DNA of 63,972 bases, counting the filler, from Gonapodya sp. JEL0774 (lineage: Eukaryota): assembly GCA_027604505.1 (NCBI GenBank). It is 4 parts of 4 records of this genome, joined end to end, with 100 filler letters (N's around TTAATTAATTAA, not from the genome) between each part and the next. Parts side by side here need not be neighbours in the genome. Positions count along the whole stretch, not along the records: positions 17,613 to 35,037 come from JADIIX010000271.1; 3 more parts are not named here. One strand, written 5' to 3'. Below are positions 3,987-63,420 of the stretch, one piece after another. A model generated the notes under the pieces. That model had not been told where the DNA came from and ran no database searches. It saw nothing but the letters and a program-made list of their open reading frames with translations. Numbering within the stretch: the first letter of the stretch is position 1; every line of letters starts with the position of its first letter. The translations under genes were made by a program, and so were the position numbers.

Positions 3987-6481
3987 ATGACTTCTATTGA
4001 CGTCAAATCAACAACTCACGAGACCCTAGTCACCGAGCACGAAGCAGTCTTGGAGATATCTAAAGCTGCATCGGACGGCAACAAAGCCGATTCGAAGCTC
4101 ATGGTGGACGATGTGGAGGACGATGGCAAAGCGATTTCGAGCAAGGTCGCCCCGATCGAGTACACACCGTTATCATTCACATTGCTCTTCGTTGGGTGAG
4201 TTTCGTGCTCGCATCCCATGTTAGATTGGGGTATTCTAAGTTTTTGTTCGTTTCATTTTGTGATTCCTCAGCCTCCTGTGAGTCTTCGCACATCCCCGCC
4301 AAATCATCCAATTTCTGTCCAAGATTCTGATTATCTTATTCCATGCATCTGTAGTCTTGCCGTTTTCCTTGCAGCCCTGGATCAGACCATTCTGTCAGTC
4401 GCAATTCCCAACATCATTACGGATTTCCAAACATTCACGGGAACGTCATGGATCTTTACTGCATTCATTCTCACTGCGACATGTAAGTTCGACCGTCATC
4501 GTGGTTTCCATCTACAATCTCCTGATTACAAAAATACTTGCAGCCTTCATTCCCGCTTATGGAAAGGCATCCGACATTTTCGGTCGCAAAGCCGTCATCC
4601 TTTTCGCGATCGTCGTCTTTGAAGCCGGATCCGCCATCTGCGGTGCGGCAACAAGCATGAACATGCTCATCATTGGACGAGCAGTGGCCGGATTGGGAGG
4701 AGGCGGCATCTTCTCCCTTGTCATGGTCATCATCAGCGATATCGTCCCATTGGAGAAGAGAGGGATGTACCAGGGACTCATCGGTGGTACGTGATCACAA
4801 AGGCACTCTTAGGTTTCTAGTGGGGCTTGAGTCTCACTCGAATGTGCACCCAACAGGTGTTTTTGGGTTGGCTTCGGTAGCCGGTCCCCTCATGGGCGGA
4901 GCATTCACGTGAGTTGGTTTTCCTCAGTATGTATTGCAATCTCAGTTCACTCAGCTGTTTGTCTCGATGACAGTGATCACGTGAACTGGCGTTGGTGCTT
5001 GTGAGTGCTCTAGTCGGTTTGAGATCTGCACTGGTTTTGCACGGAGCTGACACGCATGACACCATCTCAGCTACATCAACCTTCCTCTCGGTGGCTTCAC
5101 CATCATTGCCGTTATCTTCTTGCTCAAGTTGCCCGTCGGTTCCGGTGATATGAAGAGCCAAATCCGCCGACTCGACTTCATCGGAATCTTCTTACTCGTT
5201 CTCGGCATCGTTCTCGTTCTCGTCCCTCTGTCCGAGGGTGGCAACGACTACGCGTGGAACTCTGGGTTTGTGATCGGATTGCTCATTGCCGGTGGTGAGA
5301 ATGTCTCGACTGTTCGTTTTGGAATTCCCATTGAGTGTCTAAACGGTCGTTGTTTCATAAAAATCCAGCTGTTGTTCTTGTGGCGTTTGTTTTCGTAGAA
5401 GCCAAAATAGCAGTGGAGCCAGTTATCCCTCTGGACATGTGAGTGCTATCGGATGGTTTTTGATGTCCGGTCGTCCAGATCTGATACTTGGCGATCTCAC
5501 GTCGGACTGTATTTCGAAGGTTCAAAAACCGCTATATTGCCATCGTGTTCTTCTGCTCCTTCATGAACGGTCTTTCCTTCTTCACTATGTTCTCCTACGT
5601 GCCGAGCTTTTTCCAAGTTGTCAATGGTGACACACCCACACAAGCGGGTGTCGATTCGTTGGCTCTGGTGCTCGCGATGGTCGTTTCCATGATTGGAGCG
5701 GGTATTTTTATCTCCGCCACTGGAATCTACCAGCCCTTGGTCGCGTTGAGCGCCATACTTCAAACGGTTGGAGGGGGTCTCATGTTCACGCTTGTACAAG
5801 ATTCATCGACTGCGCAGAAGGTCGTCTACTTGATGATCACTGGTCTCGGTGAGTTACGACTTGCTATTGGTATTATTGATCGAATACCTATATTGTGTTG
5901 TTTTTCGCGCACCAGGTCTTGGAATGGGAATGCAGGTTCTCTTGATCGCTGGTCAGGCCGCCGCACCGGCAGACCAGCAAGCAGTAAGTTTCATCGTTGC
6001 GTAGAGAACAGATGCGTAATTATGTCGCTCATCGATATCCTATGCGGCAAAACAGCTCGTCACCGCCAATGTGAACTTTTGGCAACAAACCGGCGGTGTC
6101 ATCGGAATCGCGATTGCATCATCGGTGCGTCTCGCCTGCTCTCGCTTTCTGAACAAAAAAAGCATTGTTGCCTGACTAGTTTATGTTCTTGTTTGATCTC
6201 TCATGAAGGTCTTCTCGAACAAGCTCACCAACACCTTGGCAGAACTCGCTCCTCACGCGGTCGTCGCATATGTGAAGAATAACCCCTCAGCTTTGCGTTC
6301 CGCTCCCGCTGAGTTTGTGCCCGCGGATGAGCTCGAAGGTGTTATCCGGTCGTACGTCACGGGGTTGACGTACATGTTTATCCTCACTGTACCCTACGGT
6401 CTGGTGATGTTGCTTGGCAGTTTCTTCGTGAAGAGGTCGAGACTGCCGAAGGGAGCTGAGGTTCCGATGGGAGCAGCGTGA
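3987..6481 (+). CDS. MFS drug:H+ antiporter (DHA2), tandem copy 2; multi-exon
   Basis: Protein closely similar to copy 1 (LAALDQTILSVAIP, YGKASDIFGRK, ...LPKGAEVPMGAA*), with the same intron positions. Confidence 0.93.
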
Positions 6482-6876: not shown

Positions 6877-9206
6877 ATGGATTTTACAGCGGACGAGAAC
6901 CCGTTTGAACAGCCTCCCCCTCCATATTCGGCCTTGAGCGACCCCAGCGTGAGTCGGGTCTCAGCTATACCGCTCCAACAAGAAAGGTCCACGAGAGCTC
7001 CGTTGCCACAATACCCACCTTCAACTCCACCTCATGCGCACACGGGGAGCTGGCGCCAGGTTTCGCCATCTTCGTCCTTTTGCATGATACCGGATTCCCG
7101 ATCTGCAGACTGTCTCAGATCAATGGCCGACACAGCTATTACAGCATCGGGGCTCAGCCCTCCAGAAATTGGAACTGAGCAACGAAAGGGTCGAGATTTG
7201 TGGTGGATTCTCTCCTTTCTGGTCGTAGTCGCTGTATTCGCAAGTATGCCGTCTAAGTCCATCGAGGGGCAGGGATAATGTGGTCGAAGCGCCGCTGACT
7301 CTCGCATTTCTTTTCCATCGACACCAAACATAGTTCTTGCGCCGTTTTCCGTAGTAGTTCTGCGTAATCGTCCGGTGCAGGATACCAACATCATGTTCCC
7401 ATATATGGACGCACTGTTCTTGTTCGGATTCTTAAATCTGCTCGCGAACGTGATGAGCTTTTTCTATTTTTGCGTGATGATATAGTATGTAAATCTTCTT
7501 TGATTGAGCTGAGCTCGGTAGGACTTGCACGTGATGATGATACCCTATCACACAGCTGGCCCCGATTCTGCCACCACGCAACCATCTTATTCCACTTTGT
7601 TTCCTGCCCTGCATTAGCCATGGCTTTGATATACAAGGGCCAACTACCTATCGCCGTTGGGATTACAGTTCCAATTGTGGTGGCGATGACTGCGACGTAC
7701 ATAATCATTCGGAAACGAATATCATTCTCGGTTCTCGTGATTGAGCATAGCCTTGAGACAATGAAGGAGCGTGAGTTTATTGACGTGCGCATTTGCAACT
7801 ATCGCCGTGAAATAAGCTCCAATACCAACCATTTGCAGATGGTTCGATATATCTGCTGGCCATGCTCCAATTGCTCGGCACACTTGTGTGGCTGGCAATA
7901 TGGTGTGTCGCCTCCATCGGTATTCATGTCAAGTTGTTTACGAAATCTATGACGATCGGAGATTTGAGGAGCGCGACAGGTTCCAAGATATTCGTATATA
8001 CATTCTTTACCTTTGGAGCGTATTGGGTGGCACAAGTTATTGGATCCGTTCTCCACGCCTCGGTTGCAGGTGAGCGGTGCTTCTGCAAGCGAACGTAGGC
8101 GGAGTCTCCATGCACATTTGAATTCGCACGTAGGTCTCTATCGACAGCTCTATCTACCTTGGGAGAACGGAGCCTCCAAAATAGTCAAGACACCAACCGA
8201 AACGCATACAATATGGTCTTCTTACAAACGAGCGATGGGCAAATCGTTTGGGACCATTTGTTTTGCGAGTCTTCTGGTTCCCGTCTTCCAGTTCTCCAAA
8301 CTGTACACGAGACCAAATCCTTCTGTGAGTTCCGCGACTCGATTAGATATTTCAAGGCTCGCTCGTTTGTCATCACGTTTCGGCATGAAACTATGCACAT
8401 TCCAGCGTGGAGCTATCGGTGGGATTGTGTCTCCGCCCTCCTGCGTGAACACCAACGCGTCGCTCAATGGATGCTCTCTCGCCTACGCTACCACACATGA
8501 TAAGGCGTTTTGTGAGGCGGCAAGTGACACAAGTTCTTTGCTGCGACGAAGAGGTTTAGAAGTTGTGCTGAATGAATCTATCATACACATTGTGAGTTGG
8601 GTCATCACAGGTCGCGGAGACACTTCAACCTATTAACAGTAATAAGTGCAGGTTTTGGCGGCCGGAGCTTTGTTGGTTGGAGGATTCACGTCAGGAATAG
8701 GCGGTTTATACGTGGGCAGGTCTTTACAGATCCAGAGTGAATGGTGAGCACCTCGAAGCGAATGAAACGAGTTGATAATGGACCGAGGACTTTAAGTTAC
8801 GCAATTCCCTCACCTAGGATGGCTTGGACTGGGGACGCTCGCGGCGATTACGAGATTACAATAATAGCGGTCGTTGTCGGCCTCATTATCGGCCTCACTA
8901 CTTTCGGACTCACCTCATCTTTGATATCTGGTGGAGTCTCTGCTATGCTGGTGTGCATTGGTGAGTTGCATCTTCACGGCAACCTTTCCGAATTGTGAGG
9001 TCGAGGCTTCAATAACCATCACACGCCAACCAAATCTATACAGCCGAGGATCCACAATCTCTTGCGGTGGAGAAACCAGACCTTCTCAAGGCAATCCAAC
9101 AGGTGAGTGACAGGCGCAGTTTTTCAACAGAAGGTCTGTGTATCCAAAGCGCACAAACGCGAATGATCTGCAGAAGTATCCTGAAGTCAATTACCGATCC
9201 ATCTGA
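6877..9206 (+). CDS. PNS1: Choline transporter-like (CTL/SLC44, PNS1 family) membrane protein
   Basis: Pro-rich N-terminus, RDLWWILSFL, multiple TM exons, KRAMGKSFGTICFASLLV, AFCEAASDTSSLLRRRGLEVVLNESII, C-terminal EDPQSL...KYPEV. Confidence 0.8.
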
Positions 9207-17612: not shown

Positions 17613-19025
17613 AGCTCGCATGACCCCCTTCACTTCTTAAAATCAAAAGAATGAAGCCCCGCTTCGCTTTCGCTCAGCGAAACTTCGTCTTGGGGACTCA
17701 GCTGAGAGCAGTGCCGCTGATGCTCAGCCCTTGGAGAGTCTCTGGGAAACAGAACTTTAAAGCAAGTCCGAACGTTGTCATCAAGGCCAGAAAATTCATT
17801 TACACTCTTGGGGCAAGCACTCAGCGCCAGGCAATGCTGAAGGGTGCCTGTGCTATCCACACCATCCAATATCTCTCCCCAAACCTGGATTCTCGAATAC
17901 GATGGTGGTCCCTCTCACAGCTTACCTCCAACCTTCCTGCGATGCAGGATGCTGCAAACACTGTTGCTAAACATTAACGTAGCATCTCTGAGTGGGCAGA
18001 TCTTGAAGCAATTGACAAGTTTTTGAAGGTGAGCTCTCATTCAATTGGTGATGACCCTGCAGCACATCTCATTGTGCCAATCTTCAATCATCTCATCAAT
18101 TGATTGGAGCGGCGAGCTCTGAATTCAATTGCCCTGAAGGAGGGACCAACAGAAACCAATCTCCTCCTGCATCGCCTTGCAAGTGGAGGGCTCCCTCCAT
18201 TGTACAAGTACTATTCCAAGACTGATGATACTGATGCTTGGGGAATTGCAACTGGTATGTCTTCTCTCATGCCCTCTGTGTTATCATTATTCATGCTCAT
18301 ATTTCAGACCTCAGTTCTTAATCCTGCTCTCAAACTGTCGTATGCGAAGGAGCATCGTTGGGAAGAGCACATTGTGGACAAACTTGAACAGCAAGTCAAG
18401 AACTCATGGAGAACATTCTACAAGCCTCAATTGGACTTGCATCTCAGTTCTCACCGGGCAGCGATTTCCAGTGGCATTGACGCAGATGGCTCTGAGGAAC
18501 TTCAGACCCACACCTTCAAGCACTTGAAGCGTCAACATTTGGAAGAGAAGGATGAACTTGAGGTGTACCTATCCATGCCAACTGTTGAGATGAGTGCTGA
18601 TGCATTTTGGAGACAGTATGTCTTAAAGCCAAACTCTACAGAGAGGTCAAGCCAGTTCCCAAACCTCTCGTTGATGGCAAAAGACTACCTTTCCATTCCT
18701 GCAACAAGTGCATCTGTTGAGAGACTCTTTTCAGCAGCAAAGCTTGTCATTACTGACAAACGTGGGGGCTTGCTGTGAATGCTCTACTTTGTCTCCAGAG
18801 TTGGTAGTTGGTACAAAGCTGGATTTATGTAAAACTGAATTTTCAGTACAGTGACTCAAAATCAACTCGACTAAAGTTTTGCCATCTTGGCTCGAATCAA
18901 ACTCGGCTTGATGCAGTTTGAAATCAAATCGAACTCGACTCGGGTTCCTCAAACTCGACCTTGGCTCGACTCAAGGACCTCCAAAATCGGCTCAGCTCGA
19001 CTCAACTCGACTCGTAGTTGCTTTA
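17613..19025 (+). mobile_element. Degenerate hAT-superfamily DNA transposon (3' part) with subterminal repeats
   Basis: DSRIRWWS (DxxTRW-like), KYYSKTD, and the hAT C-terminal dimerisation motif FPNLSLMAKDYLSIPATSASVERLFS. Premature TGA stops, CpG depletion, and clustered ACTCG(A) repeats at 18862-19015 ending at a probable TIR near 19025. Confidence 0.88.
18862..19015 (+). repeat. Subterminal ACTCG(A)/GCTCG(A) repeat cluster of the hAT element
   Basis: Many CTCG(A) units and CTCAA/CTTGA variants within about 150 bp. Confidence 0.75.
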
Positions 19026-22864: not shown

Positions 22865-25569
22865 ATGATTCACTCGCATTCTCATCAAATACCGTACTGG
22901 ACGATTTCAGCGCTGGTCGCTTCTGTCCTCTCGATCGTATCGGGTCCCGGAGTTCGAGCTCAGAATCAAGCAGCCGATTGCGCAGTGTTCGAACAGTTGT
23001 TTTCCCAAGCAAATGTGGAGCTTCCGTGGACCAGAGGAAGCTGCTGCGGATGGTGAGTGGTCGATTTTCTGCACGGTGGTGATTGGTCGACTTGCTCATT
23101 CTCACCAAATTCTCCACAATTTGCGCACCAATGTCGGTCAGGGCAACTGGACTCTCTGACTATCAACAGATCACATGCACCAATAACGGGACAGATGGTC
23201 GAATTGTTGAGGGTTTGCTCAGCAAAATGGGGTTTCCGGGGGCGACCATCCCGCCTCTCGCATCGCTGGACAGACTGCAACGACTGGATCTCGATACCAA
23301 CGGTCTCGTGGGCACCATCCCTCCACTCGCGTCGCTCATCAGGCTTCAGTACCTCTGGCTACACAACAACTCGCTCACCGGTCCCATACCCGACATGTCC
23401 GGTTTGGTGAACTTAGGAACACTCGTCCTCTACTACAATAATGTGAGTGCTGCTGCACTGGATGTCATAGCAGCGAGTAAAGTGGCGGAGAATGCCCTGA
23501 GACCACTGGGAGTGGAACAGGAACATGCCGGAACTTGCATCGTTACATGACTCTTGAGTTGTTGGGCACCGACTTATCCGTTTTCGTATACTTCACCAGC
23601 TCACCGGAAATATTGATGGTGTCCTACCCCCAAACGTCGGTACCTGTACGATAACATACGGGGAAACTAATCAGGAACTCTACACCTGCAACAGCAGCTA
23701 CCCTGCAGAATGCAACTCAGTAGCCAGCAGAGCACAGTACTTTACGAAACAAACCGCCCAATTCTGCGCAGCTGCGGCTGCGGCTGCTGCAAGTGCATAT
23801 TCGACTGCATCAGATTCTCCTACGACTGCTGCAAGTGGGGCTGCTTCGACCATCGCATCGTCGGGCTCTCAACCGACTTCAACGGCTGTCGTAGCGCGCC
23901 AACCCTCAACTTCTACGGTTTCTGTCGTCAATTCAGCGTCTGGGACCTCCCTATCGTCGACCGGCGCATCCGATCTCAACGCCAACAATGACAAGGACAA
24001 GAAGGGATCGGGAATCTTGATTCCGACCGTTTCCGCAGTCGCGGCAGTGCTCGTCATTGGAGGTGCTCTTGTGGCGTTTGTTTTTGTTCGCCGGTCTCAG
24101 CTTAGAAAGGAAGCTGCTGGAAATGGAGGTAAGTTGATCGTCCCCATCCGAAACCTGTTGGCCGGACTCTGCCCAACAACTGGCCCACCGACCAGCTTCC
24201 CCAACCAACACTTCGCCCCCGGGACCCTACAAACAACCAACAAACACATCCATGTCTCTTTCAACGACAAGTGACACTACATTACGGAAAGACGGCGTCA
24301 GTTCTCAAGGAAGTAAGCGCACTCTCGTGTCCGGAGGCTCAAACAACGGATCACAGCAGATTTCGGGGACCGAAGACTTGATGAGCGAGGTATGTTTTTC
24401 CGGTGATTGCTCTTTCGTTGCATTGATCCATATATTATTGAACAATTTCGTCGGCCCCATTTTGACATATTCCCGTTCGTTTTGTACGTCTCGTAATATC
24501 ATTTAGTCGCCTCACTGGACGTTCATGTACTTTGCCGGAGTGAACAACAAGTACGCCCGACAGATTGATTTGCCCGCTGGGAGTCCTGTATTGTGGGTCG
24601 AAGAGGAGGTGAGTGTTTCGGGATGATAAGTTTTCGGAGGATGGCGAAACGAATGGAGAGGGACAGAGTATCGTGAGCGAGGATACATCTCTCTATCTCC
24701 TGCTCTATTGCTCGCTTCGCTTGGAGTTGGTACCGCGGATCAACATCACGACGGTCCCGACTCCCGACGTTGGTTGTCGGTTCTCAACCCATGTTTCCGA
24801 TCCATGTTTCCTCTATCCGATCCCCATGCGCCTTTAGTTTGTTCCAAACAATAGCGACGAAGTCGCGGTGCGCCCGGGTGACCAGTTTAAACTTCGAACG
24901 GCCTTCCGTGATGGTTGGGGGTACGGTCGGAACGTGGAGACTGACGAGGCAGGATTACTTCCCCTGTAAGTCACGACATTGCACCAGACCTCAACACGGT
25001 GGCATTTTCATGCACCTTATGGTGTCTGTATTCCCTCAATACTCATGCATGCGTACGTATCCGCCGTATGTGCACAGCGACCATCTCCGTCTCGGCACAG
25101 AACCACAACCACCTCCCTCAGCATACCCATACGGCCGTGTAGAGTCATCAATGCGGTTCCCCAAACAGCAGTACCAACAACCAGGCTCTGGTCGGTCCAA
25201 TACCACGGCGTACGAATCCAGCCCGAGTTCGTACTCGCGATCCAACTCGTCGCCCGGAAGCGGAGTGACCCTGCAGGGTGGCCTCGTCGCTCCGTCGGAT
25301 GCCCTTCCTCTGATTCCCTCGGGAGTTGCGATGATGCCAGGGTACAGCCGACGGCAAGAAGTGAGTGTAGGGTCACACATTCTTAGTAATTTCAAAGTGC
25401 TGATCATCGGCGACAATGTGTGTGTGAACCACAGTCACCATATTCGCAAGCAATGGCGGAAAATAGTTACTCGCAATCCATGGGGTACACCCGAGACGCT
25501 CCTAGCAGACAATATCCGCAGTCTGGAGCTTGGGGAGACGTACGCGGTCCGGAACAAGCAAGGCGCTGA
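22865..25569 (+). CDS. Single-pass receptor-like protein: signal peptide, plant-type LRRs, Ser/Thr stalk, TM, SH3 domain, Ser/Tyr-rich tail
   Basis: 8 exons (22865-23052, 23142-23442, 23600-24128, 24196-24389, 24507-24608, 24838-24965, 25078-25360, 25435-25569) splice in frame. LQRLDLDTNGLVGTIP and LQYLWLHNNSLTGPIP; TM VSAVAAVLVIGGALVAFVFVRR; SH3-like FVPNNSDEVAVRPGD..RDGWGYGRN..GLLPL. Confidence 0.88.
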
Positions 25570-29270: not shown

Positions 29271-32201
29271 CTAAGACCCTCGAGTATCCTCCACCACCTT
29301 CTCCAGTTTCGATACTGCTGGCTCATCCGTCGGTGCCTCTCCATTTTTGCCGACCAATTCATCGCGGTGGGGTAACTTCGATCCATCGAGGCCCATCTCA
29401 ATGAGTAGTCCATCGGCCCATACTGCTCCTGGTTCCGCTGGTGTCTCAATGACAAGTGGAGATGGGGGTGGTGGTGCAGAGATGGGCGACGCGCGGGGTA
29501 GGTGAGCGATGTCGAACGATCCAGATTTGGTTCCAGATCGTCTCCTGATTGCGGCTCCGAAAAAGTCCAGTCGCAGTGAGCGTGGTCGAGACATCGAAGG
29601 TTGAGATGCGGGAGATGTCGGTGACGAAGGAGCTGTTTCATCCGGTTGTGGGGGTTCTCCACCAGTGTTGACAGATCCAGGTGCTGATTCAGTTGCCTTA
29701 TCGACTGGTACAGACTTGGCCCTGGATCGTCGGAAAGTATTTCGTCGACCTAAACTTCCGAACCAGCCGCCTCTGACATCAATTGCACTTCCGTCTGGGC
29801 CAGCTGCTGATGTGGCGTCTTTTGTTACCGTTTCCACTACGAATGCTTCGCCGTCCCCATCAACATTCTTTGCCACGCTCATTCTTTTGCGCCCCGGTGG
29901 TTGATCATTTCCTCCAGCTGAAAGGTGCCCCCCAGCATCCCCCCACCCGTCATGCGAATCGTAGCTCACGCGCCCCTTGACGCCGGAATGACCGAGCACT
30001 ACATTGGGGACAGGAATACTAGGCGGAATTGGTGCCGGAGGTTTCGCCACCGAGATGATCACGTGCGATGGTGCGTGATACGAAGGAGTCGAGGACCGAG
30101 GTCTTGCTCCACGGCGACCAGCCAGAGTAGAGGCAGACGATGTCTTCCGCTGGAGAGATGAAGAATCATAGTGGCTGCTGCTTCCAGAGTTCAGTCCACT
30201 TGTAAACGAAAGACGTGAATCTGGTCCGGCGAAAGATTTGCCCAATACGTCGGTGGGAGATACTGCGACTGCCTGGTGTTGAGTGTTTGTCGACGGCGCC
30301 ACTTGCAGGTCCAAATCTGGTAAGTCTCGTCCCTCTTCAAAGTTCCAGCTGAGTGAAGACGGTGCACCGATTGACGAAATTGATGTCATGGACGTTGTCT
30401 TTGGGATAGGACTCGCGGGGGGCAGTCTGTATCGCTCCTCGATATTCGAATTCGAGTACATGACAGACGAACCACCGAATGACGAGCGGGGAGCTGGGCT
30501 GCCGGACAAGCTTCGACGGGATGGGTCTTCAGTGGACTGACGAATAGCTGACCGAGGTCTCGACGAGGGAGTGGAAGGTCGACCCGAAACAGGGGACGGG
30601 GGATTCTGAATGTGCCCAGAAGACACCAAAGCCGGTGTGAGAATTTTAGGTGATGCATCAGTGGAGTCTAGGCCAGTCCCGCCGGTGGATATACGTGCGA
30701 GCGGTATAGTTGCAGAACGGGAGCGAGGTAAGACAGCCACCTCCTGGGTATGTGACAAAGCGGTTTGGGTTGCAGCGCGAACAGGTCCCTGAGACCGAGG
30801 AAGTGCATATGCGGATTGGGGGCTTGAAGAGTTCGCGGGGTTGTCGGAAGCCAGGGGGACGTGCGTGAGGTGTCGTGATGCTCGCAAGGAGATTGGCGAT
30901 GACGGCGGCCCATACTCTCCGCTCGTCGGGGACTCATTCAGCACCGCCATGTGATGTTCGAATGATGAAAATGCTGCACGTAAGCGTCCAACATCGGCAG
31001 ATTCAGGGAGGCGAGGCGGTGACATTGAGACTGATCCCGATTTACTGGACAATCCGCCCCCAGTGTCGGGCGTGCGAGAACGTCGATTAAGGGAGATTGA
31101 GCGTCTTACGACCGCCTGCGCTACACGTTCTTCGAAAGTTGACATGACACGCGCTAGACCGGTATCTGACAGGGTATCCGGATTGAGGTCTGGAGGAAGA
31201 ATTGGTAAAGAGGGTGGTATCGAAGGAATCGTTGGAGGACTGGAATGCCTGACTTGATCTGAGAGAGTGCGAGAGGATGCACCGTGTATAGTGGCTGCCC
31301 GACTCAACGACCGACTGCGACCACGGTTTACCGAAGAAGTGGATTCCGCCGTGAGAGACGAAGCAGATTTGGCAGAGGGCGTAGAGATACGCTTCTCAGG
31401 GTCCGTTACAGCGCGTGTGGGACCTGGGTTACTGATGGGCCTTGTACGACTCTTGGTCGCCTTCACAAGGGAGCCGGCTGAAGCATACCGGCGCAAAGAT
31501 GGGTCTGGCTGTTGAAAGAATTCGCGCGGGTTTGAGGTGGAGGCTTCACTTTGATCGATGGGTGTCTTTGAGATCGATTGAATAGCGTCAGCATCCTGGG
31601 TACGGCGAACATTGCCTCTCTTCCAAAATGCTGTCCGATGGCCCAACGAGCCAAGCGAAGGTGGCGTCCGGGGTACTTCGGCAATCTGGGGTCGATCATC
31701 AAACGACACACGCGATCGGGATGAAGGGGCAATGTGGGCCGAACTCGCAGCGGAGGGTGCCCTGGTGTTGTTGGTCGGTGGGGGTGGTGCGAGGTTGTCA
31801 GCATCGCCTATGGGTGAGGTGTGATGCAAAGCATGGTGCACTGTGGTCGATTGAAATGATGTAGCATCTACAACGGGACTTTGTGGGGGAGATGGATACT
31901 GCTGGTGCGAGGATGTCACGTCTGTAGGCGGTGGCATCGAAGTATGTTGTCCGGAGGGCGCCTCACGACTCCCGACAGGATTCCGTCTTGCAATCTGTGA
32001 CTTGGATCGAGATAGCACAGCTTCTGCACCCCGAAGACCTGTGAATCCTGCTTTGTCCGTGTTGGTTGCATGTGGCTTCTCAGACTGTCTCCCGCCACCT
32101 GCAACTCCATTACTGCGTCCGCGGGATCCAAAAAGTCCAAGAAACGATTTCAGTATCGGATGGCTGGATGGATCGGAAGCCGTGCTTGGGGAGGAAAACA
32201 T
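29271..32201 (-). CDS. Large, apparently intronless, disordered Ser/Pro/Arg-rich protein
   Basis: 976-codon uninterrupted ORF; no recognisable domain. Confidence 0.7.
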   Translation of the reverse strand: MFSSPSTASDPSSHPILKSFLGLFGSRGRSNGVAGGGRQSEKPHATNTDKAGFTGLRGAEAVLSRSKSQIARRNPVGSREAPSGQHTSMPPPTDVTSSHQQYPSPPQSPVVDATSFQSTTVHHALHHTSPIGDADNLAPPPPTNNTRAPSAASSAHIAPSSRSRVSFDDRPQIAEVPRTPPSLGSLGHRTAFWKRGNVRRTQDADAIQSISKTPIDQSEASTSNPREFFQQPDPSLRRYASAGSLVKATKSRTRPISNPGPTRAVTDPEKRISTPSAKSASSLTAESTSSVNRGRSRSLSRAATIHGASSRTLSDQVRHSSPPTIPSIPPSLPILPPDLNPDTLSDTGLARVMSTFEERVAQAVVRRSISLNRRSRTPDTGGGLSSKSGSVSMSPPRLPESADVGRLRAAFSSFEHHMAVLNESPTSGEYGPPSSPISLRASRHLTHVPLASDNPANSSSPQSAYALPRSQGPVRAATQTALSHTQEVAVLPRSRSATIPLARISTGGTGLDSTDASPKILTPALVSSGHIQNPPSPVSGRPSTPSSRPRSAIRQSTEDPSRRSLSGSPAPRSSFGGSSVMYSNSNIEERYRLPPASPIPKTTSMTSISSIGAPSSLSWNFEEGRDLPDLDLQVAPSTNTQHQAVAVSPTDVLGKSFAGPDSRLSFTSGLNSGSSSHYDSSSLQRKTSSASTLAGRRGARPRSSTPSYHAPSHVIISVAKPPAPIPPSIPVPNVVLGHSGVKGRVSYDSHDGWGDAGGHLSAGGNDQPPGRKRMSVAKNVDGDGEAFVVETVTKDATSAAGPDGSAIDVRGGWFGSLGRRNTFRRSRAKSVPVDKATESAPGSVNTGGEPPQPDETAPSSPTSPASQPSMSRPRSLRLDFFGAAIRRRSGTKSGSFDIAHLPRASPISAPPPPSPLVIETPAEPGAVWADGLLIEMGLDGSKLPHRDELVGKNGEAPTDEPAVSKLEKVVEDTRGS

Positions 32202-33052
32202 TCTCGGATGGCGGATATCGAGGGGAGAGCCACTTTACAAGGGGGACGTGAACCGAGAAACAGAGATATCGGCACGCCAGAGCAAAAATACAAGCAACAT
32301 CGAGCTATGAGTCTATCGTATGATTCCTGAGGACCTTTGACGTTGAACTTACAGCTATTTTCAGCTCTCCCAAGGATCGGCGAATTGCCCCGCGATACCG
32401 TCCCCGGCGATCTGACACGTATACAAGGAGTTTATTCGAAGCTTGAAGAGCGATTGCGTTGTCGTTTCGACTCGTCTCCGGATGATGGGCCGTTTAATGT
32501 ATATTGGATTCAAAATATACACAAACGGCGTCGTGGTGAAGAGTGTGGTACAGTTTCTCTCCCCGCGAACTATATCCCCGTCTCGTGAGAACAAACATTG
32601 AATATACAGTTCAATACCCAGTTCTCACTCGTCTTATGTCTCTACCTTGTGTCTCTTCCGGTGGTGTGCAGTCATTCTTTAAGAGTTGACTGTCGGACTG
32701 ACACCCTTATTGGGACTCAGCCGTTGACCATCTCAAACATTCCAGCCACCGACGTCCTAGCAGTCGACATCACCAGACCAAATGAGTACCACTTCACGAA
32801 TATTGATTACTGACTACTGTTATATTCAAAACGGATTTACGTTCTGTACCACTTTTACTACAGGACAATGCCTGTTATTAGTCCATTGGCACGTCCATTC
32901 TTGGATCTCGAATATTAAATCGCACTCTGATACTTTGGTTCCTTAGGCACCGGTTGACGAAGGTCACTCCGGCGGCCCACGTACGTACTGTGATCAATCA
33001 GAGTCCCATAACAAGAACCGGAACATTATGATCCCAATCAATGCGACCGCAA

Positions 33053-38880: not shown

Positions 38881-41800
38881 TCAAACCACCTCCTTGGCCA
38901 ACTTCTCCCCCTCACCTTCCCCGACCTGGTGGATCTCCTCCCCGGTCTCCAAGTCCACGTGCAAGAGATCCGCGATCTCTCCCGGCCCGCCAGGCGCCAT
39001 CTGCTTCTTCCAGTGTTCCTCCTCGTTGGGTGGGAGGATCGGGATGAAGATGGATGGGAAGGCGAGGCCCACAAGGGAAAGGGCCACCATGCATACGCCG
39101 ACGAAGAAGCTGGAGTGGTGGGGATGAGGCGGGAACGGAGGGGAGCACGGTCAAAACTAACGGGTGCGGTTCGCGCCAACGACGTGCATCGGCTGGACAC
39201 GTACCCGAATCCGACAAGCTGCATGGGGAGTCCCTTTGGCTCCTTGACACGCGCAGCAAAGTCGGCGAGAGAGAAGGACGCGATAACTGCGTGGTTAATT
39301 CGGTAGGAGACCCACCGTCCGTCACACGTGCGTCAGCGATCTCCCAGGTGCACTCGAACGCAAAAGCCACAACCCCCACTCAAACGCACTGAGCAAGATT
39401 GGTCCGGTGACAAACTTGACGATGACCGCCCACGCGAGCGGAAGACCCCAGTTTCCCGGCGTCCGCTCGACGACGGCATTGATGTCCTTGCGGAGTTGGT
39501 CGATAGAGTAGAGGTTGAGGTAGTAGGCCTTGGCCAAGGCTGGCGAGAATCCGAGGGTGGTGGTGGGTTCCTTGGCCAACAAGTAGGATCCGAGGAGGCC
39601 GACAATGGCGAGAATGATGCCGGTGACTGTTGATGAATTCGGTGCGAAAACATTGATTAGCTGGGAGGAAAAAAGCAGTCCGATTCTGGTCGAGCTACTT
39701 ACTCAGTCCTGCGATGGAACTTGCTTCGTAAGCCACGATGATCGCCACGGTGGGAGAAAGGATGTAGAACGCGGCGTGGGCGATGAAAGCCCTGGGGCCG
39801 ACCTGGCTGATGACATCTTGGTAGCGATAAAGATAGCTAGCTCCGAAGGAGTATGCGTAGCCGAAGAGTACCATGCCAAGCTCTATGTTCAGGAGCGAGC
39901 GGTGATCAGGTTTCCGTGGTCCCCTCCAAGAGACTCGTCGCATGAACACTGGGCTCACCGTTGGTGTACTTGTCAACGTAGTCGAGCGCGTCTAGACCAA
40001 ATCCAGTGGTGTAGAACAGACCTTCAACGATACATGAGCGGGGCGTGAGAACAGTTGCCACGCACACACGCGGATACCAGATGCACACCCATGAGGCAGC
40101 CAAAAATGCAGAGGAACAGCAAAATCACGTCCTTGCGCAACCCTTTGAAGAGTCGAGCGTCGTAGAGACTCGTGGAGAGCGTCTCGACGAGAGAGATCGC
40201 GGAGTCGATCCCCAACATGAAAACGTTGATAAAGAACAGAACAGACCATACGTTGGCGCCAGGGATTCGAGCCAGAGCCTCTGGATAGGTCAAGAATCCG
40301 AGGACGAACGTGCCGAGCGACGTTTGTGACGGGTCGAGGTTGAGGAATCCTGCGACACCGAACGCTGCGAAAGCGGCGAGCATTTCGAACGCGGAGTTGG
40401 CGAGGGCGACGATGACAGACTGTTGACGGATGTGAACAATCGGCACGGAAAATTGATCGTGTGACTGTGCCAAAGGTTACACTTACATCCTGGACCGCGT
40501 TTTGTGTGACGGGATTGTAACTGCCGTATGCTGAATAAATACCGCAGCAGATACCGATGGAGAAAAAGATTTGGCCGACGGCTGCCGTCCACGGTTTGGT
40601 CGACGAGATGTTGTCGCTTCGCCACGTGGCTGCAGTGGGTGAGATATGGTGGTTGAATGTCGGTTGATCCTTCCCAATACGGAACTCGGAAGCGATCGGT
40701 TCGCACATACCGATGTAAAGCTTGACTCCTTGCCATGCATTCTCCAGAGTGACACCACGAACAATGATCACGATCAACATGAGCAACGGGTAGCCCCTGT
40801 GTGATGCAATATACTCGTGAGAAATCACCTCGCAAGAGATCGAACGACCAGTTCTCACTCACATGGTGATGTACACGACTTTGCCGAGCAGGACGGGACT
40901 GAGAGCAGAACGCGCGGTATGTGCGTTGCAACTTTATTGTACGGATACAAATCTGACCGACGAGGGAATTCACTCACCCTCTGAACGTTGCAAAGTAGGC
41001 AAACACCCACACGAAAATGAGACAACCAAACAGAGCCCAATTAATAGATCCAGTACCTTCCTCGCCCGCAGAGAGATCCTTGTAGCCAACAATCGTTCTA
41101 CGAAAGTGTTGAGACTGTAGTGAACGGTAAAGCAGAGAAAAGTCTCTCTCATAGTGACAATTCACCCGAAAAAATAAGCAGCCACGCTCGGGGAACCACC
41201 ATCGACAGTCCAGGGTAGCGGTGAAGTAAACGATTTGATCTTAAGAAGTCAGGAAATGTTACTATTTCCGGAGACTTGATCAGAAAGAGGTGGCACACTC
41301 ACAAAATACAAAACGCCGTACGCAACGATTGGAACATAATAAGTGGCGACAATGTAGCCAGTAATTTGTGATGCCAACCCCTTCACACTCAGTGAACAGT
41401 AAGTTCGACCTCAATCTTGCAATCTCGTAACCGGATGAATTACCATTCCTCGCAATCGGGGATGCACTCGACCAAATGCAGTGACGGCGCCTGAACGCGA
41501 AATCTGACCAAGAATCATTTCCATGGCAAGAAGTGGAATTCCTGAAAAAGAACGAAAGTAGTACATGTTACGTGATTCGCCTGGCAATCTCCGAACGCAT
41601 TTGCTAACCGCACCAATCAAAAACAGGGCCATGAGATAAGGAACAAACCACTGGAGTCCATAGTTACGCCATGCTTGCGAGGGATCTACAATGATAGTCA
41701 AGACGATCCAGTCCAGTTGCTTCGATTCAGTGATGTGTGGACACTCACATCTAAACATGTTTCCAAGACCTTTCCGAGACAAAGCGAGGAAATCAAGCGA

Positions 41801-47416: not shown

Positions 47417-48633
47417 ATGACTCTTCTGCGCCCTTTCCTAATGATATTCGACTTTGATATGTCTCTCATAGACGATGATTGCGACAACGTCTTCATGCGG
47501 TGAGTGGGACGTGTGTCTGGAACCTAGTGAGCCACATAGTGAGCACCCGCCCCCTCATCCAATGAACCACTTCATGTGGGACATGCGATGATGTCAATTC
47601 TAGGGAGCTAGTTCCCGATATTGTGGATGAGTTGAGCCGCCGGTAAGATCTTCATTGCTTCTGTTCGTGACCCGCCGGATCCCTACCTCCACATTGAGCA
47701 CACATCTTTATAAAGGCACAGGGCCGGTGAAGTATGGGTAGACCTAGTTGCTGAATCTGCAAAGGAAGCTGCCCGCCGCGGATTCACCGAGGAACAGATC
47801 GTAACTGCTTTGCAAAAGGCACCGCTGGTGAGACATTGCAATGCGAATGTTGCTTTATCGGCGAGAGAGAACACAATCGAGACACTGTACATGTTTTGAT
47901 AGCATCCGAGTACAGCAGAAGCTATTCGAACCGCCACAGAGGCTGGCGGTGAGGTTATCATCTGTTCGGATGCCAACACGTTCTTCATTGAAACTATTCT
48001 GAAGGTGAGTGATAAGACGACGCTTCCTCACTTGACAATTATCTTCTTGACGCTTTCCCCATTTGTGTGGGTGATTTTCCAAAGCACAATGGCCTACTGC
48101 ACCATATCCGACATATCATCACCAATCCCGCACATTTCTCTACCACATCTTCTCCACCTTGTGTAATGATTTCTCGTCGTACGCTCGCAACTGACCCGCC
48201 TCATGGATGCGATCTTGATCCGCCACGGTGTGGAGCGAACTTGTGTAAAGGGAAGGAAATCACCAGTTTCGTAGGCCCAGACTGGGACTGGAACTGGGCA
48301 AGAAGCAGCCGCGGCATGGAGCGTGGCTCGCCATGGACTGAAGGAAGTCACAACACCCTTGTGAAGGCTGAGAATGCCACCTCCACCTCCAGTCGCTACG
48401 GGAAAATCCTCTATGTCGGCGACGGCCGCAACGACTACTGCCCCATATCTCTCCTTTCAGAAAGGGACATCGCTTTAGTTCGACGTGGGAAGGCTCTGGA
48501 GAGATTGGTTGACGGGACACACGGTGGGAAGGTGAGGGCGAAGGTCGTCAAATGGGGCGACGGACGGGAGATTCTGGCAACAGTGAGGAGAGAAATCGGA
48601 GAATGGAAGGCAGGTGGGAAAGTAAGGGGTTAG
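47417..48633 (+). CDS. HAD-superfamily phosphatase, PHOSPHO1/PHOSPHO2 (pyridoxal-phosphate/phosphoethanolamine) type
   Basis: IFDFDMSLIDDD (motif I), ICSDANTFFIETIL, IITNPA, HGC..CGANLCKG, YVGDGRNDYCP. Confidence 0.9.
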
Positions 48634-61233: not shown

Positions 61234-61852
61234 GTTCCGCAAAGAGAGCCAAAGCAAAGAAAGCAATGAAATCAATAAGAAAAGAAATCGATCCCGTGCA
61301 GCTTTCTCTTGGAAAAGAGCAGAGTCACTGAAATGACCGGGTGGGTTCTGATGATCGATGATCGTTTCCGTGGCTCGGGGACCCCTTTAAGTTATCTGTG
61401 TAAATTCGCCTTGCGATTTGCCGTGTCATAGGGGAGTTCTGTATCACAGTTTATCATTCACACAAACACATTACTGAACCAATCTATTAGTTCTTCGAAG
61501 TCTGACGATTGCTGGTCTTGGGGACCAGCCGCTCCCTATATTATATTAATATTACCATGTCCCTAGCAAAGCTTCTTCGTACTGGACAGCCTAAAAGATA
61601 TACACATAGCTCTTTTGGACAGTTTCAGCAGTGCACTGCATTGTTTTCCTTTCGAAGCGGGACGCACTCAACGAGAACCATTTCTCTGACCCATCTTGTG
61701 GGCAGTATGTCAAGTGACTTTTAACTGCGATTTCACAGAAATGATTCGTTTGGAGCATGTACTCACGTTCAGTTCTCAGCTGTGGGCAGTGCTGTGCGCA
61801 GTTATCGCAACATGTGGACAGTTTCTCGACAGCCCTCGCGTGAACGCCTGCA

Positions 61853-63136: not shown

Positions 63137-63420
63137 GGGAGGTGGGACAATAAATTGCGGGACATGACGTCTGATCTGCTATTATCTGAGTGTACTCGAG
63201 TGCGTTATGCGATTCTTTTAGTGTACGTAGTGCTTTGCGCTTTGGACTTTCGAGTTATATTATATGTTGCAAGTTCTCGCCGAGAGTCAGGTCAACTCGC
63301 GGATATTAATATATTATTCTCACATCGCAAGCAGTTTGACTCTTCTATCCAAAAGAATTGAAGTCAAGCGCAGAATCAAATTTCGCGGATCTCCCCCTGA
63401 ACGTGTGAAACCTCAACTGA

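What the first reader, a model, noticed from the sequence alone, without database searches (positions are those of the whole stretch)
22865..25569. Plant-type LRR ectodomain coupled to a cytoplasmic SH3 domain instead of a kinase
Seen: signal peptide, Cys-containing cap (DC..W...CCGW..ITC), LxxLxxLxLxxNxLxGxIP repeats, Cys-rich cap, Ser/Thr stalk, TM, then an SH3-like domain and Tyr/Ser-rich tail. Known: the GxIP LRR type typifies plant/oomycete RLKs and RLPs, while TM-SH3 sensors (Sho1, Fus1) are fungal MAPK adaptors. Inference: a hybrid surface receptor for non-self or substrate sensing that signals through SH3 docking. I do not recognise this as a characterised system.
Basis: partly seen in the sequence, partly recalled or inferred. 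Interest (0 to 1): 0.8.

Follow-up and report, generated by a model that had tools for sequence, protein, structure and literature searches.

The report
Fungal LRR membrane protein with SH3
This is an intact gene of the aquatic fungus Gonapodya for a single-pass membrane protein with a small plant-style leucine-rich-repeat domain outside the cell and a predicted SH3 docking domain inside; it likely acts as a kinase-less surface receptor, one of a family of dozens in this genus, and its function is untested.

Summary
Window 22865-25569 (+) is an intact eight-exon gene, all introns GT-AG. It encodes 619 aa: signal peptide, Cys-capped block of about four plant-type LRRs, Ser/Thr/Ala stalk, one membrane helix, a cytoplasmic SH3 and a Ser/Pro/Tyr-rich tail.

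From residue 5 the product is letter for letter GenBank's "hypothetical protein HDU93_004725" of Gonapodya sp. JEL0774. That model starts inside intron 1 and lacks the signal peptide.

The SH3 misses Pfam's cut-off, but other evidence supports it:
- A 39-row family profile hits solved SH3 domains at 2.5e-14.
- AlphaFold gives pLDDT 86 and Foldseek matches SH3 structures at rmsd 1.0-1.7 A.

New here:
- It is one of 14 LRR-TM-SH3 proteins, all Gonapodya.
- These sit within 36 proteins that share an extended "PHW"-SH3 module behind variable ectodomains.
- The peptide-binding face is non-canonical, resembling yeast Fus1.

No transcript data and no functional data exist. I found no paper on this architecture. 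This scan noted the same domain combination before, on other DNA (Basidiobolus: e1-9749233, e1-7322153). Whether the two are homologous is untested.

Verdict: a real, uncharacterised new variant of receptor-like proteins. The signalling role is inferred.

The parts
22865..23052 (+). Exon 1: first in-frame ATG, signal-peptide-like segment (aa 1-32), first part of the N-terminal Cys cap (Cys39, 60, 61); ends in phase 2
   Evidence: tblastn of ortholog P0016 residues 27-62 gives 67% identity here, and P0072 residues 19-63 gives 42%. This exon is missing from GenBank model P0006.
23053..23141 (+). Intron 1 (89 nt, GTGAGT...CAG). It contains the ATG (23131) that the GenBank model uses as its start.
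23142..23442 (+). Exon 2: end of the N-cap (Cys75, ITC) and the leucine-rich repeats
   Evidence: Pfam LRR_4 2e-9 and LRR_1 2.2e-6, both above cut-off. 100% identical to P0006. Repeat starts at aa 105, 128 and 151.
23600..24128 (+). Exon 3: end of the last repeat, C-terminal cap with four Cys (179, 193, 201, 219), Ser/Ala/Thr stalk, transmembrane helix (aa about 301-326), RR stop-transfer
   Evidence: cap 68% identical to the ortholog, TM 70%, stalk 26%
24196..24389 (+). Exon 4: Ser/Thr-rich cytoplasmic linker
   Evidence: Of the acceptors tried from 24140 to 24259, 24196 is the only one that gives an open frame, and it reproduces P0006. 45% identical to the ortholog.
24507..24608 (+). Exon 5: 'PHW' extension (SPHWTFMYFAG...) that precedes the SH3 and is modelled as packed on to it
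   Evidence: HW motif in 24 of 28 Gonapodya rows of A2. pLDDT 78-91 for this stretch.
24838..24965 (+). Exon 6: core of the SH3 domain (FVPNNSDEVAV...DGWGYGRNV...GLLPL)
   Evidence: Pfam SH3_1 3.3e-4, below cut-off. Family profile against PDB SH3 domains 2.5e-14. SH3 fold.
25078..25360 (+). Exon 7: last SH3 strand (DHLRL), PQPPP motif, Ser/Pro/Gly/Gln/Tyr-rich tail
   Evidence: 58% identical to the ortholog.
25435..25569 (+). Exon 8: end of the tail and the TGA stop
   Evidence: Only 25% identical to the annotated ortholog.

Best explanation
The window holds an intact eight-exon gene whose product has a signal-peptide-like start, a cysteine-capped block of about four plant-type leucine-rich repeats, a Ser/Thr/Ala-rich stalk, one predicted membrane helix and a cytoplasmic domain predicted to fold as an SH3; it likely works as a kinase-less surface receptor that would pass binding outside the cell to partners docked on the SH3 inside.

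Shown:
- The gene structure and the domain order.
- Conservation of both folded parts in the sister species.
- SH3 homology and predicted fold.
- Membership of a Gonapodya family in which one constant 'PHW'-SH3 module sits behind many different ectodomains.

Inferred:
- Topology, with LRR outside and SH3 inside. This rests on the signal peptide, the Cys caps, four N-x-S/T sequons in the ectodomain and RR after the helix.
- O-glycosylation of the stalk.
- Ligand binding by the LRR face.
- Recruitment of a cytoplasmic partner through a non-canonical (Fus1-like, probably non-PxxP) SH3 surface. By analogy with yeast Fus1p and Sho1p, the partner would be a polarity, actin or MAPK-scaffold protein.
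For: Gene and product:
- Seven GT-AG introns with consistent phases, and the product contains P0006 residues 5-560 exactly.
- There is only one copy in the window.

LRR ectodomain:
- Pfam LRR_4 and LRR_1 are above cut-off.
- Ortholog P0016 hits 114 PDB sequences at E<=0.001. The top ones are plant LRR receptor-kinase ectodomains (FLS2 7e-42, GSO1, MIK2, PEPR1, BRI1).
- Its CCGW..VTC aligns with GSO1 CSW..GVTC.

SH3:
- Profile A1 hits 34 PDB sequences at E<=1, and 33 of these 34 are SH3 domains or SH3-domain proteins.
- Profile A2 hits 132 at E<=0.001. The best are vinexin 2.5e-14 and SORBS1 5e-13, and the 60 listed are SH3 domains or SH3-containing proteins.
- A1 matches the 11 Pfam-significant SH3 repeats of chytrid protein P0121 at 3e-112.
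- AlphaFold2 with 39 rows gives pLDDT 86.0 and pTM 0.73.
- Foldseek finds 173 PDB matches at E<=0.001. The listed rows are SH3 domains or SH3-containing chains, such as RasGAP, Fyn and c-Src, with TM(target) 0.8-0.89 and rmsd 1.0-1.7 A over 54-59 columns.

Selection pattern against the G. prolifera ortholog:
- PHW-SH3 85% identical, LRR 70%, caps 67-68%, TM 70%.
- Stalk 26%, linker 45%.

Family:
- The 150 best of 576 hits, plus ortholog P0016, include 36 proteins that carry the extended module. Of these, 26 have a hydrophobic helix before it and 14 carry LRR units, all 14 with the helix between LRR and SH3.
- Pfam confirms LRR above cut-off in P0132, P0142, P0189, P0251, P0255, P0246 and P0198. 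P0189 also passes the SH3_9 and SH3_1 cut-offs.
- Non-LRR members have unrelated Cys-rich ectodomains plus stalk plus TM. This pattern of variable outside and constant inside is what a receptor family looks like.

Binding surface:
- W36 and P51 equivalents are invariant in 39 of 39 rows.
- The first Tyr of ALYDY is Glu here, and Tyr in only 1 of 28 Gonapodya rows.
- Position 54 is His here (Cys in 24 of 39 rows, Tyr in 2).
- Yeast Fus1, which binds non-PxxP peptides, is reported to have Cys at positions 37 and 54 (PMC5823434, passages).
Against: - There is no transcript evidence for any exon junction. No sequencing run could be listed, and the ortholog's model is itself a prediction.
- The window protein's SH3 scores below Pfam's gathering cut-off (20.7 and 15.2 bits against 22.9).
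- Pfam LRRNT_2 is not reached for the N-cap.
- With only about four repeats the ectodomain is small, so it could be a co-receptor or a structural spacer rather than a ligand receptor.
- No ligand, partner, localisation or phenotype is known.
- No Fus1-type R[ST][ST]SL-like motif was found in the protein itself.
- On the SH3 tree, LRR-bearing members are not clustered: 10 changes against a shuffled mean of 12.0, and as low in 63 of 500 shuffles. The history of the fusion is therefore unresolved.
- Signal peptide and TM were judged from hydrophobicity, not with a dedicated predictor.
Confidence: 0.5

Rival explanations
1. It is an adhesion or cell-fusion protein rather than a signalling receptor. 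The LRR head would bind a surface (substrate, or another cell or gamete), and the SH3 would tie the site to actin assembly, as yeast Fus1p does with formins at the fusion zone.
For: - The topology is the same as Fus1p: a Ser/Thr-rich extracellular part, one TM and a cytoplasmic SH3. The Fus1p features come from passages of PMC3817587.
- The best PDB sequence matches of the family profile are SH3 domains of adhesion and actin adaptors: vinexin, SORBS1, nebulette, LASP1 and nebulin.
- The SH3 surface deviates in a Fus1-like way.
- Monoblepharid fungi have sperm-egg fusion (my own knowledge, not from a call).
Against: - A family with at least 36 members and many different ectodomains fits sensing of many cues better than one fusion step.
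- No orthology to Fus1 was tested.
- Sequence likeness of SH3 domains does not predict partners.
Confidence: 0.25
2. It is a cell-wall or mechanical stress sensor of the Wsc/Mid2/Msb2 type. The glycosylated stalk would be the working part, and the LRR head would only anchor it in the wall.
For: - A 76-residue Ser/Ala/Thr stalk lies next to the membrane.
- Every non-LRR relative inspected that has a sizeable ectodomain also has a Ser/Thr/Pro-rich stalk before the TM.
- Yeast mucin-like sensors work with the SH3 protein Sho1 (my own knowledge, not from a call).
Against: - The stalk is the least conserved part (26% identity), while the LRR block and caps are conserved at 67-70%. This argues that the head has a specific role.
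- No sequence relation to Wsc, Mid2 or Msb2 was seen in Pfam.
Confidence: 0.12
3. It is a small co-receptor or decoy that pairs with another membrane protein, like plant SERK/BIR or kinase-less RLPs, and has no output of its own.
For: - It has only about four repeats.
- Small plant ectodomains (SERK1/2, BAK1, PGIP) are among the PDB hits.
Against: - The cytoplasmic module is the most conserved part of the protein (85%), and it is the constant element of the family. That is not expected for a passive tail.
- No partner kinase is known.
Confidence: 0.08
4. It is a gene-model artefact. An LRR-TM gene and a separate SH3 gene lie head to tail and were merged by prediction.
For: - There is no RNA evidence.
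- Some relatives are clearly merged models: P0246 with RabGAP-TBC, and P0198 with GMC oxidoreductase and UvrD helicase.
- The GenBank model of this very gene has a wrong start.
Against: - The same order recurs in 14 of 14 LRR-bearing family members at different loci in two species.
- Exon 3 ends 3 codons after ...RKEAAG with a consensus donor.
- Phases match through all seven introns, and only one acceptor for exon 4 keeps the frame open.
- The SH3 half would be a gene starting without a plausible 5' exon.
Confidence: 0.05

Closest known systems
Plant LRR receptor-like proteins and small LRR ectodomains (RLPs, SERK/BAK1, PGIP; LRR-RK ectodomains such as FLS2 and GSO1)
   Same: - Signal peptide, CxW..(V/I)TC-type N-cap and LxxLxLxxNxLxGxIP repeats.
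- A Cys-bearing C-cap and a single TM.
- The best solved-structure matches by sequence are plant LRR-RK ectodomains.
   Different: - Repeats are 23 rather than 24 residues, and there are only about four of them.
- Pfam LRRNT_2 is not reached.
- Each cap has four Cys.
- A mucin-like stalk is present.
- The cytoplasmic part is an SH3 module, not a kinase or a short tail.
- The organism is a fungus, a kingdom reported to lack LRR receptors almost entirely (PMC2939053, passages).
Yeast Fus1p (single-pass membrane protein with a cytoplasmic SH3, needed for cell fusion)
   Same: - Type I layout: a Ser/Thr-rich outside part, one TM and an SH3 inside.
- The SH3 has a non-canonical surface I. The position-54 Tyr is replaced (Cys in 24 of 39 family rows, His here), and Fus1 is reported to have Cys at 37 and 54 and to bind R[ST][ST]SL rather than PxxP (PMC5823434 and PMC5417721, passages).
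   Different: - Fus1p has no folded ectodomain and no LRR.
- The SH3 here carries an N-terminal 'PHW' extension and is followed by a 132-residue tail.
- Orthology was not tested, because no Fus1 sequence was at hand.
Yeast Sho1p (osmosensor branch adaptor)
   Same: It is a membrane-anchored SH3 that is used as a docking site in a MAPK pathway. This is a working analogy only.
   Different: - Sho1 has four TM helices and no ectodomain, whereas this protein has one TM.
- No Sho1 chain appears among the PDB sequences listed.
Chytrid membrane proteins with tandem SH3 domains (such as P0121 of Siphonaria, P0122 of Entophlyctis and P0127 of Physocladia, auto-named 'Sorbin and SH3 domain-containing protein 2')
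   Same: - They hold the nearest SH3 relatives by sequence (E down to 1e-109 with the A1 profile).
- They share the DGW..G.N..T...G.(F/L)P(L/I)DCL signature.
- They share the plan of Cys-rich ectodomain, stalk and one TM.
   Different: - They carry 2-11 SH3 copies instead of one.
- They have no LRR units and no PHW extension.
- They keep the first ALYDY Tyr more often (5 of 11 non-Gonapodya rows).
- Their linkers carry R-x-S-S-I-Y motifs.
Basidiobolus LRR-TM-SH3 genes noted earlier in this scan (e1-9749233, e1-7322153)
   Same: According to those notes they have the same domain order and eight exons, and they are also in an early-diverging fungus.
   Different: - They belong to a different phylum (Basidiobolomycota against Monoblepharomycota).
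- I could not obtain their sequences, so homology against convergence is untested.
- No Basidiobolus protein was among the 30 hits whose names I looked up.

Membership tests
Leucine-rich repeat proteins, plant-type (LxxLxLxxNxLxGxIP) extracellular class | LRR units detected by curated profiles | tested here: met
   Pfam LRR_4 at 37.8 bits (cut-off 27) and LRR_1 at 27.1 bits (cut-off 20.6) on exon 2. LRR_4 also scores 35.3 bits on P0006.
Leucine-rich repeat proteins, plant-type (LxxLxLxxNxLxGxIP) extracellular class | Repeat consensus with the GxIP segment, and closest solved relatives that are plant ectodomains | tested here: met
   There are three regex-exact repeats at aa 105, 128 and 151. 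P0016 against the PDB gives FLS2, GSO1, MIK2, PEPR1 and BRI1 as top hits. The repeat length here is 23 residues, not 24.
Leucine-rich repeat proteins, plant-type (LxxLxLxxNxLxGxIP) extracellular class | LRRNT_2-type N-terminal cap | tested here: inconclusive
   Pfam LRRNT_2 is not reported at E<=1 on exon 1 or at E<=0.1 on P0016. However, CCGW..VTC aligns to the CSW..GVTC cap of GSO1 in the PDB search.
LRR receptor kinases (RLK) | Cytoplasmic protein kinase domain | tested here: not met
   Pfam finds no kinase family in P0006, P0016 or P0072 at E<=0.1.
SH3 domain | Passes the curated Pfam SH3 cut-off | tested here: not met
   SH3_1 scores 20.7 bits on exon 6 alone and 15.2 bits on P0006, against a cut-off of 22.9. 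Paralog P0189 does pass, with SH3_9 at 31.1 and SH3_1 at 27.3 bits.
SH3 domain | Profile-level homology to solved SH3 domains | tested here: met
   The A2 profile gives vinexin 2.5e-14 and SORBS1 5e-13, with 132 sequences at E<=0.001, and the 60 listed are SH3 domains or SH3-containing proteins.
SH3 domain | Five-stranded SH3 barrel fold | tested here: met
   The AlphaFold2 model has pLDDT 86.0, with blocks 31-80 at 96-98. Foldseek matches RasGAP, Fyn and c-Src SH3 domains with TM(target) 0.8-0.89 and rmsd 1.0-1.7 A. This is a prediction, not a solved structure.
SH3 domain | Canonical PxxP-binding residues (ALYDY tyrosines, W36, P51, Y54) | tested here: not met
   W36 and P51 are kept (39 of 39 rows). 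The first ALYDY Tyr is Glu, the second is Phe, position 37 is Gly and position 54 is His.
Fus1p-like membrane SH3 proteins | Single TM, Ser/Thr-rich extracellular segment and a cytoplasmic SH3 | tested here: met
   See for this protein. The Fus1p features come from passages of PMC3817587. Glycosylation could not be tested.
Fus1p-like membrane SH3 proteins | Orthology of the SH3 to Fus1, and binding of R[ST][ST]SL-type peptides | not testable with these tools
   No Fus1 sequence was available from any call. Only the shared loss of Tyr54 (Cys or His) is seen.
Sho1p | Four transmembrane helices before the SH3 | tested here: not met
   Only one hydrophobic helix lies between the ectodomain and the SH3.

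The most novel reading that the evidence does not exclude
Gonapodya has built its own receptor superfamily in which a non-catalytic, extended SH3 module (PHW-SH3) takes the place that the kinase holds in plant RLKs. Dozens of interchangeable ectodomains (plant-type LRRs, several Cys-rich folds) are wired through one TM to the same docking domain. This would give a zoosporic fungus a kinase-free way to sense substrates, partners or microbes. If the Basidiobolus genes prove homologous, the system would date to early fungal evolution.
Probability: 0.35. Interest if true: 0.75.

Novelty: new variant of a known kind. Interest (0 to 1): 0.6.

Why it matters
Fungi are held to lack LRR surface receptors almost entirely. 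The few found in chytrids and zygomycetes were reported to have no other functional domain (PMC2939053, passages).

Here an early-diverging fungus has at least 14 LRR-TM proteins with a conserved intracellular docking domain. They sit inside a larger family built on the same output module.

If the module signals, this is a receptor design not described in fungi, plants or animals. It would open the question of how zoosporic fungi perceive plant debris, algae or microbes. It would also give Fus1-type non-canonical SH3 domains a much wider role.

Practical consequences:
- The GenBank model of this gene needs a new first exon.
- Domain-threshold surveys such as Pfam scans will miss the SH3 in most members.

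Tried and rejected
- **Whole genome of the window:** not held, so I could make no genome-wide census. The counts come from protein libraries clustered at 50% identity and from the best 150 of 576 hits only.
- **RNA evidence:** The look-up of sequencing runs listed no run and no RNA holder. This is not evidence either way.
- **First structure prediction:** a 3-row alignment failed, with pLDDT 38.7. It was repeated with 39 rows.
- **Word-index search with the SH3 region:** it found only P0006 and P0016, which was too insensitive. The profile search and the exhaustive search were needed.
- **ESM Atlas:** I used these as leads only. The Atlas's own model of P0016 residues about 405-490 matched SH3 clusters (TM 0.55-0.64). 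The whole-protein feature hits were LRR clusters scoring under 0.8.
- **Tree of the SH3 module:** it is poorly resolved, with 26 of 41 inner branches open. The LRR label is not clustered (63 of 500 shuffles as low), so I drew no conclusion on one or many fusions.
- **Earlier findings by place and by sequence:** nothing was returned.
- **pdb_via second look at the fold:** the machine was busy, so it was not done.
- **Horizontal transfer of the LRR from plants or bacteria:** considered and not pursued. The high scores of bacterial and plant hits sum many repeats and say nothing about descent.
- **Functional link to neighbouring genes:** considered and rejected. The neighbours are unrelated housekeeping or transport genes and a hAT fragment.
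- **Paper searches for this architecture:** 'Gonapodya' + 'leucine-rich repeat' (2 papers listed; neither title nor abstract start concerns LRR receptors, and neither was opened); 'chytrid' + LRR + SH3 + receptor (2 listed, on choanoflagellate and animal gene families by title and abstract start, not opened); LRR + 'SH3 domain' + 'zoosporic fungi' (0); 'Gonapodya' + 'SH3' (0).
- **Nelson et al. 2004 (PMC1470681):** not held. Kim et al. 2008 and Tong et al. 2002 were seen only as citations.
Full report
**1. What is in the sequence**

The region is eukaryotic DNA with short introns.

I built a gene model from open frames, splice signals and two database proteins. The exons are 22865-23052, 23142-23442, 23600-24128, 24196-24389, 24507-24608, 24838-24965, 25078-25360 and 25435-25569.
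- All seven introns (67-229 nt) begin GTGAGT, GTAAGT or GTATGT and end YAG.
- For exon 4, of the acceptors tried from 24140 to 24259, only 24196 keeps the frame open.
- The product is 619 aa.

The product contains residues 5-560 of P0006 exactly. P0006 is GenBank 'hypothetical protein HDU93_004725 [Gonapodya sp. JEL0774]'.
- That model starts at an ATG inside intron 1 (23131), so it lacks the signal peptide and three cap cysteines.
- Exon 1 is supported by tblastn. Ortholog P0016 of G. prolifera JEL478 matches 22958-23065 at 67% identity, and P0072 matches 22898-23047 at 42%.
The corrected junction gives CCGW-ATGLSDYQQ-ITC, parallel to CCGW-AISDRQA-VTC in P0016.

**2. Anatomy**

- Residues 1-32: signal-peptide-like, ending VRA|QNQ.
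- N-cap with Cys39, 60, 61 and 75.
- Three exact 23-residue repeats LxxLxxLxLxxNxLxGxIP at 105, 128 and 151, with a degenerate repeat before them.
- C-cap with Cys179, 193, 201 and 219.
- Four N-x-S/T sequons in the ectodomain.
- Stalk, residues 223-298 (S 19, A 17, T 10 of 76).
- One hydrophobic helix at about 301-326, followed by RR.
- Ser/Thr-rich linker.
- A conserved module at about 404-487 (SPHWTFMYFAG..., then the SH3).
- A 132-residue tail (S 24, P 17, G 13, Q 12, R 11, Y 10).

**3. Is the LRR real, and is it plant-type?**

Pfam LRR_4 (2e-9) and LRR_1 are above cut-off on exon 2.

P0016 hits 114 PDB sequences at E<=0.001.
- The top ones are plant receptor-kinase ectodomains (FLS2 7e-42, GSO1, MIK2, PEPR1, BRI1).
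- Smaller ectodomains (SERK, BAK1, PGIP) come lower.
- The N-cap aligns with the plant CxW..GVxC cap.

Pfam LRRNT_2 is not reached.

The repeat type is not exclusive to plants. One search also lists bacterial, metagenomic and diatom proteins. Their high scores sum many repeats and say nothing about descent.

**4. Is the SH3 real?**

Pfam alone would say no: 20.7 bits on exon 6 and 15.2 bits on P0006, against a cut-off of 22.9.

Four other lines say yes.
- A 3-row profile (A1) finds 34 PDB sequences at E<=1, and 33 of these 34 are SH3 domains or SH3-domain proteins. The best is RasGAP at 1.2e-5, and the exception is a telomere resolvase at E 0.38.
- A1 matches chytrid protein P0121 at 3e-112. 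Pfam finds 11 SH3_1 stretches in that protein at 3.4e-106.
- A 39-row profile (A2) hits 132 PDB sequences at E<=0.001. The best are vinexin 2.5e-14 and SORBS1 5e-13, and the 60 listed are SH3 domains or SH3-containing proteins.
- AlphaFold2 with A2 gives mean pLDDT 86.0 and pTM 0.73. Foldseek then finds 173 PDB matches at E<=0.001. The listed rows are SH3 domains or SH3-containing chains, with TM(target) 0.8-0.89 and rmsd 1.0-1.7 A.

A first attempt with 3 rows failed, with pLDDT 38.7.

The stretch before the SH3 (helix at model residues 6-12, strand at 21-23) is modelled with pLDDT 78-91 as part of the domain.

**5. Are the two halves one gene?**

No RNA run could be listed, so this rests on comparison.
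- The same order is annotated in the ortholog P0016 and in P0072.
- It recurs in all 14 LRR-bearing relatives, each with a hydrophobic helix between LRR and SH3.
- Against P0016, the folded parts are conserved and the linkers are not. PHW-SH3 is 85% identical, LRR 70%, caps 67-68% and TM 70%, while the stalk is 26% and the linker 45%.

I put the merged-model rival at 0.05.

**6. The family**

An exhaustive profile search with A1 gave 576 proteins at E<=0.001 and 88 at E<=1e-10. I studied the best 150.

Thirty-six proteins (35 representatives plus P0016) carry the extended module.
- 32 have the HW motif.
- 26 have a helix before the module.

A local HMM of LRR units finds repeats in 14 of them at E<1e-7, and in none of the other listed hits. 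Pfam confirms LRR above cut-off in P0132, P0142, P0189, P0251, P0255, P0246 and P0198. P0189 also passes both SH3 cut-offs.

Names were seen for 21 of the 36, including all 14 LRR-bearing ones. Every one is G. prolifera JEL478 or Gonapodya sp. JEL0774. Fifteen were not looked up.

Non-LRR members have other ectodomains, followed by a Ser/Thr/Pro stalk and a TM.
- Several have Cys-rich types.
- One (P0253) has three tandem repeats of about 90 residues.
- Some have very short ectodomains.

The nearest outside relatives are chytrid membrane proteins with 2-11 tandem SH3 domains. They come from Entophlyctis, Physocladia, Rhizoclosmatium, Chytriomyces, Siphonaria and Quaeritorhiza.

On a quick tree the Gonapodya modules form one side of a branch (SH-aLRT 87). 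Inside that group the tree is unresolved, and LRR-bearing members are not clustered.

**7. How it most likely works**

*Shown:* the domain order, the conservation pattern, and a family with a variable outside and a constant inside.

*Inferred:* the LRR head and caps face outward on a glycosylated stalk, and the SH3 module recruits a cytoplasmic partner.

The docking face is non-canonical.
- W36 and P51 equivalents are invariant.
- The first ALYDY Tyr is Glu (Tyr in 1 of 28 Gonapodya rows).
- Position 37 is Gly or Ala in 34 of 39 rows.
- Position 54 is His here, Cys in 24 of 39 rows and Tyr in 2.

Yeast Fus1 is reported to deviate in the same surface, with Cys at 37 and 54, and to bind R[ST][ST]SL rather than PxxP peptides (PMC5823434 and PMC5417721, passages).

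I therefore favour a kinase-less receptor with a Fus1-like docking output (0.5). The rivals are an adhesion or fusion role (0.25), a wall-stress sensor (0.12), a co-receptor (0.08) and an artefact (0.05).

**8. Comparison with what is known**

Soanes and Talbot (PMC2939053, passages) found LRR-plus-TM proteins in only four of 49 fungal genomes, none with another domain.

A 2026 paper on a chytrid MAG speaks of LRR receptor-like kinases in chytrids (PMC13618815, passages).

Fus1p and Sho1p are the known membrane SH3 proteins (PMC3817587, passages).

Four paper searches found nothing on an LRR-TM-SH3 protein or on SH3 in Gonapodya. The library does not hold most subscription journals.

This scan recorded the same domain combination earlier in Basidiobolus, described there as confined to that genus (e1-9749233, e1-7322153). 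Gonapodya belongs to another phylum, so the combination is wider than those notes say. Whether this is by descent or by convergence I could not test.

**9. Verdict**

This is a real, intact, uncharacterised gene. I rate it a new variant of a known kind: an LRR receptor-like protein with an SH3 output. It is notable mainly as a member of a lineage-specific receptor-like family. The function is inferred only.

Noticed in passing
window 23053-23141 (ATG at 23131): The GenBank model of this gene (P0006) starts at an ATG inside intron 1. It therefore lacks exon 1, which holds the signal peptide and three cap cysteines. The annotation needs a new 5' exon.
   Followed up: yes
window 25435-25569; P0016 residues about 573-633: The last exon is only 25% identical to the annotated C-terminus of the G. 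prolifera ortholog, which reads like another frame or an unspliced intron. This is probably a model error in one of the two species.
   Followed up: partly
P0121 (Siphonaria sp. JEL0065) and other chytrid hits P0122-P0131: These are membrane proteins with a Cys-rich ectodomain, one TM and 2-11 tandem SH3 domains. In P0121 the linkers carry R-x-S-S-[ILM]-[YF] ten times, which resembles the yeast Fus1 SH3 ligand consensus R[ST][ST]SL. The SH3 domains may therefore bind their own linkers, giving a self-associating multivalent scaffold.
   Followed up: partly
P0224, P0230, P0231, P0245, P0257, P0260, P0266, P0267: A third SH3 group has the signature FDDGWAYAEN..GLFPIDCLR..LPAF near the C-end. P0224, P0257, P0260 and P0266 (416-473 aa) have a TM helix near the N-end, which is a Fus1-like layout. 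In P0267 (671 aa) the helix lies near residue 331. P0230, P0231 and P0245 (186-256 aa) have no predicted helix and may be fragments.
   Followed up: no
P0246 and P0198 (Gonapodya sp. JEL0774): These LRR-TM-SH3 units are annotated as fused to RabGAP-TBC (P0246) or to GMC oxidoreductase plus UvrD helicase (P0198). They are very likely merged gene models.
   Followed up: partly
P0253, P0263, P0240, P0237, P0214, P0234: These are family members with the same PHW-SH3 module; P0253 and P0237 are named as Gonapodya prolifera, and the other four were not looked up. Their ectodomains are non-LRR and Cys-rich. P0253 has three tandem Cys-containing repeats of about 90 residues. None has a Pfam family.
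   Followed up: partly
window 18104-18775 (+): An open frame here carries a hAT-family C-terminal dimerisation domain (Pfam 2e-13). It is probably a transposase remnant, about 4 kb upstream of the gene.
   Followed up: no
window 29274-32234 (-): An uninterrupted 987-codon open frame with no Pfam family at E<=0.001. It lies at the edge of a G+C-rich stretch (0.59-0.62 at 34-40 kb).
   Followed up: no
window 4282-6279, 7968-8633, 39995-40858 (-), 48016-48630, 49583-51301, 61844-63972: The other genes in the window are ordinary: an MFS transporter, a choline-transporter-like protein, an SNF-family symporter, a putative phosphatase, casein kinase II beta and an ankyrin-repeat protein. Nothing suggests a functional link to the LRR-SH3 gene.
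   Followed up: partly
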